Positions 3,028-29,676 of a DNA stretch of 35,763 nt are shown here, in pieces (the stretch's first letter is position 1; each line of letters opens with the position of its first letter). The stretch is from UHGV virus genome UHGV-0260253. The stretch is one strand, 5' to 3'. This stretch comes from a virus. The translations under genes were made by a program, and so were the position numbers. The notes under the pieces were generated by a model, which had not been told where the DNA came from, searched no databases, and was given only the letters and a program-made list of their open reading frames with translations.

Positions 3028-4106
3028 CAGAACGGGTCCTCCTGTACTCTGGCTTTTTTCTTTTTCCGCGCGCCGGGGGCTTCGGGTTCAGGCAGATAAG
3101 CATCAGGTGGGCCGACACGGATTTCCGTCAGGGTGCCGTTCTGGTCCTGAGTAAACGTGACTTCCGAGACAAGCAGTTCGGTATTGTCGAAACCACAGAC
3201 CGGATCGAAGACAATCACCCGCTGGTTGGGCTGCCACAGCGTACCGTTACCCTGTCGCCAGCCCTGCACCACATAGGTGGTTTCATCCGTCCGCGCCGCC
3301 CGTTGTCGGGCTTCAAAGTCAGCACGCGCAATACAGCCTGCCCCCGTGGCCTGCCCTGTCTGCCTGATATACATCGGACGGTAACGAGCAATAAATGCGT
3401 CCTCTGTGCGGGCCCGCAGCGCGGTGGTGGTGGCCTCACCGAAATCATCGTCGTTTCCGGCACGCTGCCCCGCCACCTGGTAAACTGAAAACCGCTCCCG
3501 GATACTCTTCTCCGTATCACAGGAAAGGATGTTTTCCCCAACTACCAGCGCGGTATGTGCCCGCGTTGAGCCAATACCGCCAATCACCAGCCTGCCGTGC
3601 GGGTCGTCGTAAGCCAGCGCCTGCTGCTGACCGAGTATTTTGTTGATTACCTCAATCACCGTTTCACCGTGATCAGGCTGAACATCAGGAATAACACCCG
3701 ATGGCGCACCGCTGTTCACCACCTCAATGCCGAAAGGCGCAGCAAGCGCCTGCGCAATCTGCACCAGCGAGCGTCCGTTAAACTGTGTCGGTTCGGCTGC
3801 ACAGTCAATCAGGTCAGCCGTCAGACTACGTCCGGCAATACCGGTGCTGACCGAACGGGCATCGTAACGAACGGGAGTCGCCTCCACCCAGCCGGTAATC
3901 ACCAGCTCATCACCAATCAGCACTTCCACTTTTGAACCGTTTTTAATGCGCGGCTGAAGCGTGGTGATACCCTCATCTCCCGGCCACTGGCGAGTGATCT
4001 CCACACTGAAATCCCGCGCCAGCCGTTCAATACCGGCACCGATGCGCACCGATGTCCAGCCATTCCACTCCCGGCCATTTACCCGTAGCGTGACATTGTC
4101 GTTCAT
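3027..4106 (-). CDS. Mu P-like tail protein (late control D family, baseplate hub)
   Basis: 359-aa ORF after the DNA-circulation gene; start codon overlaps upstream stop. Confidence 0.65.
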   Translation of the reverse strand: MNDNVTLRVNGREWNGWTSVRIGAGIERLARDFSVEITRQWPGDEGITTLQPRIKNGSKVEVLIGDELVITGWVEATPVRYDARSVSTGIAGRSLTADLIDCAAEPTQFNGRSLVQIAQALAAPFGIEVVNSGAPSGVIPDVQPDHGETVIEVINKILGQQQALAYDDPHGRLVIGGIGSTRAHTALVVGENILSCDTEKSIRERFSVYQVAGQRAGNDDDFGEATTTALRARTEDAFIARYRPMYIRQTGQATGAGCIARADFEARQRAARTDETTYVVQGWRQGNGTLWQPNQRVIVFDPVCGFDNTELLVSEVTFTQDQNGTLTEIRVGPPDAYLPEPEAPGARKKKKARVQEDPF

Positions 4107-25674: not shown

Positions 25675-26168
25675 TAAGCCCCCACGTAATTCCCTGAGAG
25701 ATACCACTCTTCACCTGATGCAGCCCGCTTACTGCTTTTCCGTAAACACCGTTCACGACGCGCCAGAAAATTGTTTCGTTCTGGCTGGGAGTGGCTTTCA
25801 CGGAATGCCGCCATCCACACCGTTGCAGCACGACGGTATAAGCCCCTGGACTCCAGTTCTTCCGCCTGGCGGGTCAGGCACAAAATCACCCGCGGGTCGT
25901 TAGTGCCGACATAGAAATTGCGCACAGGTCTGGTTTCACGAACTGGTTGTGGTTCCGGATCCTGCGCTCTCTCAGTCAGGCGCGGGAAATGTCTGCGTGT
26001 ATCTCCTTCACAACGGTGAGCCACACGCCCACTCTGACGTAACTTGCTTGCTGACTGCAGAACGCGCTGCCGTGAGTAACCAGCAAAAGCATCCGCAATG
26101 TCTCCGGAAGTACACCCCGGATGGGCTTCAATGAATTTCTGAACTTCATTCAAAAGACTCATAATCAC
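25674..26168 (-). CDS. Hypothetical protein with PerC-like C-terminal region
   Basis: 164 aa; ESRGLYRRAATVWMAAF resembles the PerC-family core as recalled; ATGA overlap with O-like gene. Confidence 0.4.
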   Translation of the reverse strand: MIMSLLNEVQKFIEAHPGCTSGDIADAFAGYSRQRVLQSASKLRQSGRVAHRCEGDTRRHFPRLTERAQDPEPQPVRETRPVRNFYVGTNDPRVILCLTRQAEELESRGLYRRAATVWMAAFRESHSQPERNNFLARRERCLRKSSKRAASGEEWYLSGNYVGA

Positions 26169-27106
26169 CCCCTGAATCCTGCCGGGATCTGGCTGTAGTC
26201 CACGTTGTCGTAACTGGATTTGAAGTACGGGTCTTCGCGTTTTTCGGTGTACGTGCTTACGGACGGCGATAAGCGCAGGGAAAGCTCATCCCATTTTTCC
26301 CGCAGCTTCGACGGGCTGAGCACGTTACGGCACCAGAACGGATCGCGGCTGACGCGGCTGTACATCTCGCAGATTTGTTTGTGAGTACGACCATCCTGCA
26401 CACACATCAGGCGAATTTCGTTTGCCCAGGCTGTCCAGTTTGGTTCTTTGGGACGAACCACCTCGCCGTCACATTCGGCGGCCTGCTCGTACAGGGCGAT
26501 GATTTTTTTCCAGAGCCACTGTGCACAGGTCAAATCATCCTGCGTTCCCCACTGGCGCTTTTTAGGGCTGAATACAACCGCATCAGGATGGCGAGTTAAA
26601 AAATCCTGTTCAGCCTTCTGCGTGTCCGGTTGCGAAGCGTCCGGACGAGAAGTTTTTTTATCTGACGGATCATGTTTTGATTTTACTGACGGATCCCCGC
26701 CAGATTCTGACGGGTGAAAACCCGCTTTTTTGCCAGATTTCGACGCATCAAATTTTGACGGGTCAGATTTTGATGCGTCAGATTTTGACGGGTCAGAATC
26801 TGACAGTTGAGAAAGTGCCGCTGCCTGAAGCTTTGCAACGTTAAGCTGATAGACGTTCGACGCATTGCGGTTACCCTGGCGACGCGCCTTACGCGTTAAC
26901 CAGCCTTCTGCTTCCAGCCGTGCGATAGCCGTTCTTACAGTACTCACCCCTGCGCCAATCTGGCGGGCAATGGTTTCAATTGATGGCCAGCACACACCTT
27001 CGTCATTACTGAAATCAGCCAGGCGGGCCATAATTGCCACGCTGGATAATTTCATGCCTGACGCTGCGCAACCATCCCATACATAGCCGGTTAATTTAGT
27101 GCTCAT
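26165..27106 (-). CDS. Replication initiator, O-like (N-terminal wHTH; iterons inside gene)
   Basis: 313 aa; N-terminal HTH region VSTVRTAIARLEAEGWLTRKA; central low-complexity DPSKSDASKSDPSKFDASKS encoded by the iteron array. Confidence 0.7.
   Translation of the reverse strand: MSTKLTGYVWDGCAASGMKLSSVAIMARLADFSNDEGVCWPSIETIARQIGAGVSTVRTAIARLEAEGWLTRKARRQGNRNASNVYQLNVAKLQAAALSQLSDSDPSKSDASKSDPSKFDASKSGKKAGFHPSESGGDPSVKSKHDPSDKKTSRPDASQPDTQKAEQDFLTRHPDAVVFSPKKRQWGTQDDLTCAQWLWKKIIALYEQAAECDGEVVRPKEPNWTAWANEIRLMCVQDGRTHKQICEMYSRVSRDPFWCRNVLSPSKLREKWDELSLRLSPSVSTYTEKREDPYFKSSYDNVDYSQIPAGFRG
26660..26808. repeat. Iteron array (candidate replication origin) with adjacent AT-rich stretch
   Basis: Eight copies of T(C/T)TGACGG-type motif at 26661, 26685, 26706, 26739, 26755, 26770, 26785, 26799; four tight 15-bp units TCAGATTTTGACGGG from 26747 to 26808. 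Confidence 0.65.
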
Positions 27107-27115
27107 GACCGACCT

Positions 27116-27454
27116 CTATTTCCCTGAATTTACGACGAAACTGTTCGAGCGGACTGAAGCATTCATGCTCATAACCTTCGCGGAGGTAGATAACCCGTTG
27201 TGTTTCCGGCTCCCAACGAATGACTCTGACGGGCACTCCGTAGTGATCTTTGAACCAGCGGTTAACTTGTCGCAAAGGACCGTCTCCTTCTGCCGGTTGA
27301 AATCACCCACAGCCCACTCTGCAAAGCTGTGGGTTACAATTTCCCTGTCACCTGGTACATTCACTGCATAGCAATATTCCACCTTCGCTTTTCCACCCGG
27401 TACAGGAAGCGCAATCAGTTGCGAGCGACGGTAGTGTGTTGTTAAACTGTTCAT
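27116..27454 (-). CDS. Hypothetical early-operon protein (112 aa)
   Basis: ATGA overlap with upstream gene, ends 9 nt before O-like start. Confidence 0.4.
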
Positions 27455-28020
27455 GCGTTAGTTTCTCCACAACCAGAAGCAATCGACGCCACGACGCCCG
27501 GAGCTGCACACTCGCGGGCGTCATTACTTTCTGAAATGCAAAAAATTTTGTAGACAAGTGCTGCATGCTCCTGCAGCTTCGAAATTGAGAGATACAGCTC
27601 GTCGTTAATTGCTGTCTTCTCATGCGGTTCCACTACACCGTCTTCGATTGCTGAACGAATCTGTTTTGAATAACTGCCGATCTGTTCAATGACTTCCAGC
27701 AGACGCTGGTTAATATCGGCGTTGTCCACATCCTCGACGTCAGGAAGCGACACAAAGACGCCATTTGCAGACTGCGCCACAGCATCAGCAATGAAGTGAG
27801 TGCCACCAGCACGCTGTAAAACCATTGCCCATCCCAGCGGGAAAATCTGATCGCCATCTGCACGAAGGCGGTTGAATAAAGCGTTTTCTGTTACATCGAG
27901 CCAGTCAGCCGCTTCAGCGTAACCACCCGGCAACGCCGCGATAGTTTTTCTGACAGCTTTCACGTACCACTCAGGCTGTTTTTCTATTTTCCAGTGATGC
28001 TTACCCACGATTAGCCTCAT
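27451..28020 (-). CDS. Putative CII-like / YdaT-like regulatory protein
   Basis: 189 aa directly downstream of cro-like gene; family assignment from memory only. Confidence 0.4.
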
Positions 28021-28051
28021 CGTTCTGTGGTTAAAAATTGAAAGTGTTCTG

Positions 28052-28252
28052 CTAATCTTTCGGATAGATATCCGGTCTTAAGTCAGATTTCGTAATTGCA
28101 CCTGACGTGCATTGCTCAAGTTTTTTAGCCAGCACAAAACTGGCTTTTTTATAGCCATTGAAAACCAGCCGTAAGTAGCCAGGTGTTGAGCCAACTTTTC
28201 CGGCCAACTCGCCCTGCTGTTCTTTGGTTAAAGAGTCCCAATACGCTTTCAT
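28052..28252 (-). CDS. Cro-like HTH repressor (YdaS-like)
   Basis: Internal start MKAYWDSLTKEQQGELAGKVGSTPGYLRLVFNG at ATG 28250-28252 with GGAGG SD; longer ORF would overlap cI start and operators. Confidence 0.7.
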   Translation of the reverse strand: MKAYWDSLTKEQQGELAGKVGSTPGYLRLVFNGYKKASFVLAKKLEQCTSGAITKSDLRPDIYPKD

Positions 28253-28257
28253 ACAAT

Positions 28258-28276
28258 ATGTACCTCCGGTATACAT
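28258..28276. promoter_or_regulatory. Operator-like site OR-a (ATGTACC-N7-TACAT)
   Basis: ATGTACCTCCGGTATACAT, inverted arms ATGTA/TACAT; overlaps pR -10 and cro leader; same architecture as the site in the pL-like promoter. Confidence 0.45.
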
Positions 28277-28302
28277 ATTACATGATTGAAATGAACCTTC
28301 AA
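28275..28302 (-). promoter_or_regulatory. pR-like promoter for cro operon
   Basis: Minus strand TTGAAG-N16-TAATAT upstream of cro-like gene. Confidence 0.45.
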
Positions 28303-28306
28303 GATA

Positions 28307-28327
28307 CTTGTACCTTAACGGTACAAG
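28307..28327. promoter_or_regulatory. Operator-like perfect palindrome OR-b
   Basis: CTTGTACC-TTAAC-GGTACAAG, 8-bp perfect inverted arms; overlaps -35 of the pRM-like promoter. Confidence 0.5.
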
Positions 28328-28336
28328 GGTTTTAAT
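28308..28336 (+). promoter_or_regulatory. pRM-like promoter for repressor (near-leaderless)
   Basis: TTGTAC-N17-TTTAAT ending 6 nt before the cI ATG at 28343; no SD, consistent with a leaderless transcript as for lambda cI. Confidence 0.4.
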
Positions 28337-28342
28337 TTCGTT

Positions 28343-29017
28343 ATGAAAACAATCCATGACATCCGGCGGTCTAACGCCAGAAAACTGAGAGATGGTGTTG
28401 GAGGGAATTCTTCCTTTGCCACTATGATTGATCGCGAGCCAACCCAGACCAGCAGGTTTATGGGAGATGGTGCTACTAAAAATATCGGTGACAGCATGGC
28501 ACGACACATCGAAAAATGTTTCGACCTGCCTGTCGGATGGCTCGATCAAGAACACCAGACAACGAACATCACAAAAAAACCTGATGTTTCAATCACTAAT
28601 AAACAAATCACATTAGTCCCTGTCATATCATGGGTACAGGCCGGAGCATGGAAAGAAGTTGGATATTCTGAGGTTGATTTGAGCACAGCAGAAACGTATC
28701 CCTGCCCTGTACCCTGTGGGGAAATGACTTATATCTTGCGGGTGATAGGTGATTCAATGATTGATGAGTACCGCCCGGGAGACATGATTTTTGTCGATCC
28801 TGAAGTACCTGCCTGCCACGGTGACGACGTTATTGCATTGATGCACGATACAGGTGAAACCACCTTCAAAAGGTTGATAGAAGATGGGACACAGCGTTAT
28901 CTCAAAGCGTTAAACCCAAACTGGCCTGAGCCTTACATTAAGATCAACGGTAATTGCTCTATAATTGGAACTGTGATTTTCTCAGGAAAACCAAGAAGAT
29001 ACAAAATCAAAGCCTAA
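28343..29017 (+). CDS. CI-like repressor (HTH plus S24 LexA-like peptidase domain)
   Basis: 224 aa; N-terminal HTH (ATKNIGDSMARHIEKCFDLPVGWLD), C-terminal autocleavage motifs VIGDSM (Ser) and TTFKRL (Lys). Confidence 0.85.
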   Translation: MKTIHDIRRSNARKLRDGVGGNSSFATMIDREPTQTSRFMGDGATKNIGDSMARHIEKCFDLPVGWLDQEHQTTNITKKPDVSITNKQITLVPVISWVQAGAWKEVGYSEVDLSTAETYPCPVPCGEMTYILRVIGDSMIDEYRPGDMIFVDPEVPACHGDDVIALMHDTGETTFKRLIEDGTQRYLKALNPNWPEPYIKINGNCSIIGTVIFSGKPRRYKIKA

Positions 29018-29030
29018 TCAATGTTTATGA

Positions 29031-29052
29031 ACCTGCTTCGGCAGGTTTTTTT
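29031..29052 (+). terminator. Rho-independent terminator after repressor gene
   Basis: ACCTGC-TTCG-GCAGGT hairpin followed by TTTTTTT. Confidence 0.6.
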
Positions 29053-29056
29053 ATAC

Positions 29057-29085
29057 TTGACAATGTACCTATGAGATACATAATG
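29057..29085 (+). promoter_or_regulatory. pL-like early promoter with embedded operator
   Basis: TTGACA-N17-ATAATG; spacer contains ATGTACCTATGAGATACAT (29063-29081) and a second ATGTACC at 29083-29089. Confidence 0.55.
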
Positions 29086-29188
29086 TACCCAAGAGAAACA
29101 ACAAACAGGCAGGACGCCCACGAAGTAGCCGCCGGTGGCGTATGAATGACCGGATGATTCGTTAAATACTATGTGTAAGAGAGCGCAA

Positions 29189-29392
29189 ATGAACCGTTAT
29201 TTCACATGCTCGTTTTGTGGCGCAAACGAGCTGCAGGCAAAAAAAATCATCGCCAAAGGCGGAAAAGATGAAGTTGCTATCTGCTCTGAGTGCGTAGTCT
29301 TGTGTGTCGGGGCATTAATCAATATCAGCACAACTATTCAGTTCACACCAAATGAGAATGCGCCTTTAGATGCGCGGAAATCTGGAGGTTAA
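29189..29392 (+). CDS. Small ClpX-type zinc-ribbon protein
   Basis: YFTCSFCGANELQAKKIIAKGGKDEVAICSECV: C-x2-C-x19-C-x2-C with CSFCG, as in the ClpX N-terminal zinc-binding domain (recalled). Start may be 29171 or 29189. Confidence 0.55.
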   Translation: MNRYFTCSFCGANELQAKKIIAKGGKDEVAICSECVVLCVGALINISTTIQFTPNENAPLDARKSGG

Positions 29393-29400
29393 AGAACAAA

Positions 29401-29676
29401 ATGAAAGTCCAGATTTTAAACAATAGTGGTGAAGTCGTTTGGTCATACGACATAGCCGCTCCTGTAGATCAGAGCGGCGATAGCTGGACCAATGGGAAAC
29501 ATCAGATTATGGCTGGAGTTGTGTTCTCTTTACGCCGTGCTTTAGAACAAGCTGAAGTCTTTCCATCAGACCCTGAATGGAAATGGCCTTTTTCTATTTG
29601 TCCAAATTCGGAGAGTACATTTCAGAAAATTGGTCAGAAAGTCGCACTCGAAGAGCATCAGCCAACTGTTTCCTGA
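29401..29676 (+). CDS. Hypothetical early protein (91 aa)
   Basis: Starts 9 nt after previous stop with GGAGG upstream; 3' end overlaps a convergent ORF. Confidence 0.4.
   Translation: MKVQILNNSGEVVWSYDIAAPVDQSGDSWTNGKHQIMAGVVFSLRRALEQAEVFPSDPEWKWPFSICPNSESTFQKIGQKVALEEHQPTVS

What the first reader, a model, noticed from the sequence alone, without database searches (positions are those of the whole stretch)
28254..28342. Immunity switch: divergent pR/pRM-like promoters overlaid by two operator palindromes
The 90-bp cro/cI intergenic region contains a perfect palindrome CTTGTACC-TTAAC-GGTACAAG overlapping the -35 of the cI promoter, and a second dyad ATGTACC-TCCGG-TA-TACAT overlapping the -10 of the cro promoter. 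The cI ATG sits 6 nt after a TTTAAT -10 with no SD, suggesting a leaderless cI transcript as in lambda. The sites differ in spacing, so they may be bound by different proteins (CI versus Cro-like).
Basis: seen in the sequence. Interest (0 to 1): 0.45.

Follow-up and report, generated by a model that had tools for sequence, protein, structure and literature searches.

The report
Known e14/SfV-type prophage immunity switch
This is the ordinary lysis/lysogeny control region of a lambda-like prophage of the e14/SfV type, found in about a quarter of complete E. coli genomes, and its leaderless repressor transcript has already been mapped in E. coli K-12.

Summary
The region is about 99% identical to ymfT/ymfK of the E. 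coli K-12 e14 prophage and 98.5-99.9% identical to phages SfV, SfIV and PhiR29. GenBank already marks the same 69 bp of SfV as a "putative operator region". The leaderless guess is correct and already shown: dRNA-seq in K-12 puts the ymfK start at the A of its ATG (leader 0). One claim fails. The two dyads do not differ in spacing; both are the same 17-bp site, TGTAC-N7-RTACA. One is a conserved weaker site (28292-28308) that abuts the perfect palindrome, covers the cro -35 and is centred at -43 from the cI start, against -42 for lambda OR2. The other two lie in a strong pL-like promoter just after cI. Binding by the repressors has not been shown anywhere I could find. In passing I found an unannotated, strongly covarying structured RNA of about 65 nt at the 5' end of the pL transcript. 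It occurs in many phages and is more interesting than the switch.

The parts
28052..28252 (-). cro-like gene (66 aa; ymfT/croE of e14)
   Evidence: ORF. Weak matches to the YdaS and HTH_3 families. Annotated ymfT in E. coli genomes.
28259..28275 (.). O-a, an OR1-like operator (TGTACCTCCGGTATACA). It covers the predicted cro start site and the cro Shine-Dalgarno sequence (GGAGG on the - strand, 28263-28267).
   Evidence: TGTACCTCC and TACA are conserved in all relatives.
28275..28302 (-). Predicted pR. The -35 is TTGAAG (28302->28297), then a 16-nt spacer, then the -10 TAATAT (28280->28275).
   Evidence: Read directly from the sequence. It matches 8 of 12 consensus positions, below the scanner's threshold. 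Both hexamers are conserved in relatives: TTGnnG, and TAATAT or CATAAT. The start site has not been mapped.
28292..28308 (.). O-m, an inferred OR2-like operator (TGAACCTTCAAGATACT). It contains the pR -35 and is centred at -43 from the cI start.
   Evidence: TGAACC is invariant in 20 of 20 distinct relatives, and most carry TGAACC-N5-GGTACT. The repeat finder grouped it with O-a, OL1 and OL2 on its own (family D3). Binding has not been tested.
28309..28325 (.). O-b, an OR3-like operator (TGTACCTTAACGGTACA), a perfect dyad. It overlaps the cI -35 and spacer (-34 to -18).
   Evidence: The central five bases vary freely and the half-sites stay fixed.
28308..28343 (+). pRM-like cI promoter. The -35 is TTGTAC (28308-28313), then a 17-nt spacer, then the -10 TTTAAT (28331-28336). 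Transcription starts at the A of the ATG (28343).
   Evidence: nnTAAT sits a fixed 6 nt before the ATG in 19 of 20 relatives, although those 6 nt vary. The K-12 ymfK start site has leader length 0. From the TACA of O-a through the cI ATG the K-12 sequence is identical; the one intergenic difference (28272) lies inside O-a.
28343..29017 (+). [quoted passage not shown]
   Evidence: Peptidase_S24 at 1.5e-26. C-terminal domain matches that of lambda CI at 1.9e-9. A100-G101, S138 and K176 are present.
29029..29048 (+). Intrinsic terminator after cI
   Evidence: Also annotated in SfV and Ayreon.
29057..29084 (+). pL-like promoter, TTGACA-16-CATAAT (11 of 12 consensus positions)
   Evidence: Conserved in all relatives.
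29064..29080 (.). OL1 (TGTACCTATGAGATACA), in the pL spacer
29084..29100 (.). OL2 (TGTACCCAAGAGAAACA). It starts at the last T of the pL -10 and covers the pL start site. Its right half is weak.

Best explanation
This is the immunity (lysis/lysogeny) switch of a lambdoid prophage of the e14/SfV type.

A CI-like repressor (YmfK/CohE type) and a small Cro-like protein (YmfT/CroE type) most likely both bind one family of 17-bp dyad operators, TGTACC-N5-GGTACA. The repressor has an N-terminal helix-turn-helix domain and a LexA-like S24 self-cleaving C-terminal domain.

OR carries three sites:
- O-a (28259-28275) covers the cro start site and ribosome-binding site.
- O-m (28292-28308) covers the cro -35 and lies at -43 from the cI start.
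- O-b (28309-28325) covers the cI -35 and spacer.

OL carries two sites, 20 bp apart centre to centre, over a strong pL promoter just after the cI terminator.

In the prophage state the repressor would occupy O-a, O-m and OL1/OL2, shutting pR and pL. From O-m it may stimulate the weak cI promoter. At high concentration, or when Cro binds, O-b would shut the cI promoter. The cI mRNA starts at the A of its AUG and is translated without a leader. DNA damage would trigger RecA-stimulated self-cleavage at Ala100-Gly101 and release pR and pL.

Shown: the genes, the motifs, their conservation and the leaderless start site. Inferred: which protein binds which site, the order of affinities, activation from O-m, and the pR start site.
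For: Genes and domains.

Motif restricted to the two regulatory regions: with 6 matches against 1.1 expected and 0 of 100 shuffles reaching that.

Conservation across 20 distinct relatives with no insertions or deletions between the sites. Half-sites and promoter hexamers are conserved and the central N5 is free.

O-m was grouped with the other operators by the repeat finder without prompting.

The putative recognition helix (T34, Q35, S37, R38) is invariant in 14 relatives whose repressor N-terminal region is 64-87% identical to that of the window.

Geometry matches lambda. Lambda OR2 is centred at -42 and OR3 at -19 from the cI ATG. Here O-m is at -43 and O-b at -26. Lambda has TAGATT+6 nt+ATG; here it is TTTAAT+6 nt+ATG.

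The leaderless start site was measured in K-12 on a region that differs at one base, inside O-a.

SfV's GenBank record marks the same 69 bp as a putative operator region.

From my own knowledge, not checked here: e14 is an SOS-inducible element. One paper's table lists YmfK as an 'SOS-sensitive repressor'.
Against: I found no binding data (footprint, EMSA or ChIP) for YmfK or YmfT on these sites.

The predicted pR is a weak consensus match, 8 of 12, and the scanner did not call it.

The cI -10, TTTAAT, lacks the usual A at position 2.

O-m departs from the consensus in both halves (TGAACC and GATACT) and abuts O-b with no spacer, 17 bp centre to centre. None of the well-studied lambdoid switches I know of has abutting operators (from memory, not checked here). 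Its conservation could come partly from the two -35 elements it overlaps.

The best dyad, O-b, sits over the cI promoter and not over pR. The order of affinities therefore cannot simply be copied from lambda.
Confidence: 0.85

Rival explanations
1. OR is a two-operator switch with only O-a and O-b. The block at 28292-28308 is conserved only because it holds the pR -35 and touches the cI -35. It is not a repressor site.
For: O-m mismatches the consensus in both halves. It overlaps TTGAAG (the pR -35), and its last base is the first T of the cI -35. No binding data exist.
Against: GGTTCA, the reverse complement of TGAACC, lies just after the pR -35, inside the spacer. It is invariant in 20 of 20 relatives, while the other 11 spacer bases vary. 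Most relatives read TGAACC-N5-GGTACT, a 10-of-12 match to the dyad. The site's position relative to both promoters mirrors lambda OR2. The repeat finder placed it in the operator family.
Confidence: 0.25
2. The two dyads are bound by different proteins because their half-site spacing differs.
Against: Aligned on TGTAC, both are TGTAC-N7-RTACA, 17 bp long. The two pL sites have the same form. In relatives O-a often reads TGTACC-N5-TGTACA, which makes the shared geometry plain.
Confidence: 0.05
3. The perfect palindrome works as an RNA hairpin or intrinsic terminator, not as a protein-binding site.
For: The terminator scan flagged 28307-28327 followed by GGTTTTAATT.
Against: The T-run and the outer CT/AG pairs are not kept in relatives, for example ...GGTACACAATGTTTAAT. 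The same dyad recurs inside the pL spacer, where no transcript would need terminating. The cI transcript starts downstream of it.
Confidence: 0.03

Closest known systems
E. coli K-12 cryptic prophage e14: ymfK (cohE) / ymfT (croE) immunity region
   Same: About 99% identical over cro, the intergenic region, cI and pL, with one substitution in the 90-bp intergenic region. Same genes and same operators. The ymfK mRNA was shown to be leaderless. The region occurs in 1324 of 5426 complete E. coli genomes.
   Different: e14 is defective, whereas the window belongs to a larger SfV-like prophage. O-a reads TATACA here and TGTACA in K-12.
Shigella phage SfV (and SfIV) cI/cro region, with its annotated 'putative operator region'
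   Same: 98.5-99.3% identical. GenBank U82619.2 marks 26377-26445, which corresponds to window 28258-28326, as a putative operator region. It also annotates the cI terminator.
   Different: A few substitutions, all in the central N5 of the operators or in their flanks. The SfV paper was not available, so I do not know how many operators its authors proposed.
Bacteriophage lambda OR/OL with pRM, pR and pL
   Same: Divergent cI and cro. 17-bp dyad operators. A middle site centred at -43 here and -42 in lambda. Leaderless cI with the -10 six nt before the ATG. The cI C-terminal domain is homologous. OL sites lie over pL.
   Different: The operator sequence is unrelated. Centre-to-centre spacings are 33 and 17 bp here, against 24 and 23 bp in lambda. 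O-a lies downstream of the pR -10 and over the start site, where lambda OR1 lies over the -10. There are two OL sites, not three, and OL is about 0.8 kb from OR against 2.3 kb. No rex genes and no N gene are evident. The cII-like gene belongs to the CP76 family of phage 186.
Phage 933W immunity region
   Same: A lambdoid switch with only two OL operators (stated in PMC4587872).
   Different: Unrelated repressor specificity and operator sequence. I did not compare it in detail.

Membership tests
Lambdoid CI/Cro immunity switch | Divergently transcribed repressor and cro genes separated by a short control region | tested here: met
   cro at 28052-28252 (-), cI at 28343-29017 (+), with a 90-bp gap.
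Lambdoid CI/Cro immunity switch | Repressor with a LexA-like S24 self-cleavage domain (Ala-Gly site, Ser and Lys catalytic pair) | tested here: met
   Peptidase_S24 at 1.5e-26. Homology to the lambda CI C-terminal domain. VQA100-G101, GDS138M and FK176RL are present. Cleavage itself was not tested.
Lambdoid CI/Cro immunity switch | Several copies of one dyad operator overlapping pR and pRM (OR) and pL (OL) | tested here: met
   Five sites of the form TGTACC-N5-GGTACA, found only at OR and OL. They overlap the promoter hexamers. The third OR site is inferred.
Lambdoid CI/Cro immunity switch | Repressor and Cro physically bind these operators with different orders of affinity | not testable with these tools
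   No binding data were found in the library.
Lambdoid CI/Cro immunity switch | Leaderless cI transcript from the maintenance promoter | tested here: met
   The K-12 ymfK start site has leader 0 (PMC4681348 Table S3). From the TACA of O-a through the cI ATG the K-12 sequence is identical to the window. The -10 to ATG spacing is conserved.
Lambdoid CI/Cro immunity switch | Positive autoregulation by repressor bound at the OR2-like site | not testable with these tools
   Only the geometry fits: O-m is centred at -43, against -42 in lambda.
e14/SfV immunity type | Near-identity of cI, cro and the operators to e14 ymfK/ymfT and to SfV cI/cro | tested here: met
   About 99% identical to K-12 e14 and 98.5% to SfV.

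The most novel reading that the evidence does not exclude
The OR layout may work differently from lambda. The OR2-like and OR3-like sites abut, 17 bp centre to centre, and form one 34-bp block of four half-sites. The best dyad sits over the cI promoter, not over pR. OL has only two sites, 20 bp apart. If the repressor fills O-m and O-b as a unit, activation and self-repression of cI would be coupled in a way not described for lambda, 434 or P22. That would make this very common E. coli immunity type (e14, SfV, Stx2c phages) a distinct variant of the switch.
Probability: 0.15. Interest if true: 0.4.

Novelty: already known. Interest (0 to 1): 0.18.

Why it matters
This immunity type is very common. 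It occurs in 24% of complete E. coli genomes and controls e14, the Shigella serotype-converting phages SfV and SfIV, Stx2c-converting phages and the cdtI phage. A correct operator map therefore helps in predicting cross-immunity and the induction of toxin and serotype-conversion genes. As a discovery it adds little. The region is already annotated and the leaderless transcript is published. What remains open is biochemical: who binds where, in what order, and whether the abutting middle site activates cI.

Tried and rejected
- Source papers: the SfV genome paper (Allison 2002) and the e14 analysis (Mehta 2004) are not held. I could not see what operators their authors proposed.
- Literature: searches on the operator sequence and on YmfK/YmfT binding found no footprint or SELEX site data.
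- Homology search: a search with the cI N-terminal domain returned mostly fragments and was of little use. The genome-contig scan gave the useful relatives.
- Third OL site: none found 20 bp to either side of OL1 and OL2 (read directly).
- Operator inside the pR spacer, which would parallel OL1: none. 28279-28295 does not match the dyad.
- LexA box: rejected. The dyad is TGT-N11-ACA, whereas the LexA box is CTGT-N8-ACAG (the LexA consensus is from my own knowledge).
- Rfam: no family matches anywhere in the window at the gathering threshold. In 27900-29500 there was only a chance-level rsmX match.
- pL-leader RNA: it shows no sequence similarity to HK022 putL. The covariance model found no second copy in the window, and none in lambda or HK022. 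No sequence-string hits in the literature. The single-sequence fold is not unusually stable. A simple scan found no convincing + strand terminator in the pL operon.

Full report
**The observation.** One is a 66-aa Cro-like ORF (28052-28252, - strand). The other is a 224-aa CI-like ORF (28343-29017, + strand). Both dyads are present as exact strings: ATGTACCTCCGGTATACAT at 28258 and CTTGTACCTTAACGGTACAAG at 28307. TTTAAT lies at 28331-28336, six bases before the ATG. The CI-like protein has a Peptidase_S24 domain (1.5e-26). That domain is homologous to the C-terminal domain of lambda CI (1.9e-9). The protein keeps the Ala100-Gly101 cleavage site, Ser138 and Lys176. The Cro-like protein gives weak matches to the YdaS and HTH_3 families and to two solved phage Cro proteins. 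The next gene downstream of cro belongs to the CII (CP76) family of phage 186.

**One motif, not two.** Aligned on TGTAC, the two dyads are the same 17-bp site: TGTACC-TCCGG-TATACA (28259-28275) and TGTACC-TTAAC-GGTACA (28309-28325). Two more copies lie just after the cI terminator (29029-29048), inside a near-consensus promoter, TTGACA-16-CATAAT (29057-29084, 11 of 12). OL1 (29064-29080) fills the spacer. OL2 (29084-29100) starts at the last T of the -10. With at most one mismatch, TGTACC-N7-TACA matches nowhere else in 35.7 kb. That is 6 strand matches against 1.1 expected, and none of 100 shuffles reached 6. A perfect 8+8 palindrome alone would be weak evidence, because the window holds 11 distinct ones, mostly GC-rich and terminator-like.

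**Comparative footprint.** A scan of one genome per species found 19 loci that encode a CI 73-100% identical to this one, in more than 15 genera of Enterobacterales. With SfV and Ayreon these give 20 distinct cro-cI intergenic sequences. They align with almost no insertions or deletions between the first operator and the cI ATG. The conserved blocks are as follows.

1. TGTACCTCC..RTACA (O-a). On the other strand it contains the cro Shine-Dalgarno sequence GGAGG.
2. ATATTACA or ATTATGCA. These are the reverse complements of a cro -10, TAATAT or CATAAT, which overlaps O-a by one base. This is the same geometry as the pL -10 and OL2.
3. TGAACC..CAAGGTACT.
4. TGTACC-N5-GGTACA (O-b), with a freely varying centre.
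5. nnTAAT at a fixed 6 nt before the cI ATG (7 nt in one relative), although those 6 nt vary.

The outer CT/AG pairs that make the window's palindrome 21 bp long are not conserved, so the functional unit is the 17-bp core. The putative recognition helix of the repressor (T34, Q35, S37, R38) is invariant across 14 relatives whose N-terminal 100 residues are 64-87% identical to the window's. This fits the invariant half-sites.

**A third OR site.** Block 3 is 28292-28308 in the window, TGAACCTTCAAGATACT. In most relatives it reads TGAACC-N5-GGTACT, a 10-of-12 match to the dyad. The repeat finder grouped it with O-a, OL1 and OL2 on its own (family D3). It contains the predicted cro -35 (TTGAAG on the - strand, 28302->28297). 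However, the five bases after that hexamer, which with its last G form GGTTCA, are invariant in all 20 sequences, while the other 11 spacer bases vary. A -35 element alone would not explain that. It abuts O-b with no gap, and its last T is the first base of the cI -35 (TTGTAC, 28308-28313). Measured from the cI start, O-a, O-m and O-b are centred at -76, -43 and -26. The lambda annotation puts OR1, OR2 and OR3 at -66, -42 and -19. O-m therefore sits where lambda OR2 sits relative to both promoters. I take it as an OR2-like operator with about 65% confidence. The alternative is that it is conserved only as promoter sequence.

**Identity of the region.** The cro-cI-pL segment is 98.5-99.9% identical to phages PhiR29, PhiR49, SfIV and SfV, and about 95% identical to Stx2c-converting phages, Ayreon, 2H10 and cdtI. 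GenBank U82619.2 (SfV) already carries a 'putative operator region' feature that maps onto window 28258-28326. The same segment is found in 1324 of 5426 complete E. coli genomes, where the genes are named ymfK and ymfT. It is about 99% identical to the e14 cryptic prophage of K-12 MG1655. There is a single substitution in the intergenic region, at 28272 inside O-a. The window as a whole is an SfV-like prophage.

**Leaderless cI.** Romero et al. [quoted passage not shown] Their Table S3 gives the transcription start at the first base of the gene, leader length 0. From the TACA of O-a through the ATG the window is identical to K-12. The -10 to ATG spacing is conserved among relatives and equals that of lambda pRM (TAGATT, 6 nt, ATG).

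**What stays inferred.** I found no footprint, EMSA, SELEX site or ChIP data for YmfK or YmfT on these sites. A Reg-Seq preprint reports no consistent footprints for the YmfT iModulon. The pR assignment (TTGAAG-16-TAATAT) matches only 8 of 12 consensus positions and the scanner did not call it. It rests on conservation and on its parallel with pL. It would start the cro mRNA at, or a base or two before, the Shine-Dalgarno sequence, giving a leader of about 15-17 nt. The order of affinities cannot be read from the sequence, because the most symmetrical site, O-b, lies over the cI promoter. The spacings differ from lambda: 33 and 17 bp at OR against 24 and 23 bp, and 20 bp at OL. Cooperative pairing may therefore differ too.

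**Verdict.** This is a real, correctly recognised and already known lambdoid immunity switch of the e14/SfV type. It is of low interest as a discovery. Its only open points are biochemical.

**Noticed in passing: an RNA element.** Directly after pL, a block of about 65 nt (window 29101-29165) is conserved across phages with unrelated operators and unrelated downstream genes. These include K-12 e14, ST64B, SfII, mEp460, ZF40, Yersinia and Aeromonas phages, and a T5-like Providencia phage, where it lies in the terminal repeat. An exact 18-mer from its core occurs in more than 120 viral contigs. Because the copies were selected with that core sequence, only the flanking helices count as evidence.

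On 89 distinct copies RNAalifold predicts three features:
- an outer helix, P1;
- a conserved internal segment, CAGGCAGGACGCCCACGAAGUAGCC;
- a 7-bp hairpin, P2, with a 12-nt loop, GGCRUAYGAAKR.

Nine of the 15 pairs show compensatory changes. 98.4% of cells are paired, against 21-41% when the partners are slid by 1-3 columns. The covariation score is 0.503 against 0.126 in shuffles, and 0 of 500 shuffles reached it.

A covariance model finds exactly one copy per phage and none in lambda or HK022. There is no Rfam match, no similarity to HK022 putL and no literature hit on its sequence. The fold of the window's copy alone is not unusually stable.

The element lies about 10 nt after the start of the early-left transcript, in phages reported to lack N, and also in the pre-early region of a T5-like phage. 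This suggests a cis-acting RNA that works on host machinery. Candidates are a put-like antiterminator or a 5' stabiliser. This is a hypothesis only.

Noticed in passing
window 29101-29165 (+), just downstream of the pL-like promoter; also K-12 e14 (L032 2604-2682, -), ST64B (L029 1492-1569), ZF40 (L030 1499-1576), Providencia phage PR1 (L031 1478-1557) and L033-L152: An unannotated structured RNA of about 65 nt sits at the 5' end of the early-left transcript. It has an outer helix P1, a highly conserved internal segment (CAGGCAGGACGCCCACGAAGUAGCC) and a 7-bp hairpin P2 with a conserved 12-nt loop. On 89 distinct copies, 9 of 15 pairs show compensatory changes, 98.4% of cells are paired against 21-41% in slid controls, and the covariation score is 0.503 against 0.126 in shuffles. 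It follows promoters with many different operator types. There is one copy per phage and none in lambda or HK022. There is no Rfam match and no literature hit on its sequence. It could be a put-like antiterminator or a 5' stabiliser. Its function is unknown.
   Followed up: partly
window 26657-26813, inside the replication gene 26165-27106 (-): An array of iteron-like repeats with a 15-bp period (CAGATTTTGACGGGT and variants, direct and inverted). It is probably the phage replication origin lying within the O-like gene, as in lambda. The encoded protein has an N-terminal winged-helix domain and a repetitive DPSKSDASKS stretch.
   Followed up: no
window 29171-29392 (+): The first ORF of the pL operon encodes a 73-aa protein with a ClpX-type C4 zinc finger (PF06689, 1.4e-10). 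This is an unusual first early-left gene. It is absent at this position in SfV and in K-12 e14, whose sequences diverge from the window just after the RNA element.
   Followed up: no
L003 about 3310-3360 and L017 about 1920-1975 (downstream of pL in relatives): In several relatives, pL, or the RNA element where present, is followed by a small hairpin and then a close match to the rrn/lambda boxA sequence (GCTCTTTAACAA). This hints that some phages of this group use a nut-like site, although N is reported absent from SfV-type phages. The boxA consensus is from my own knowledge.
   Followed up: no
window 27116-27454 (-) and 27451-28020 (-): The genes downstream of cro correspond by position and length to e14 ymfM, annotated as a cell-division inhibitor and also 112 aa, and to ymfL (189 aa here, 185 aa in K-12), which belongs to the phage 186 CII/CP76 family. 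I did not look for a CII-dependent establishment promoter for cI.
   Followed up: no
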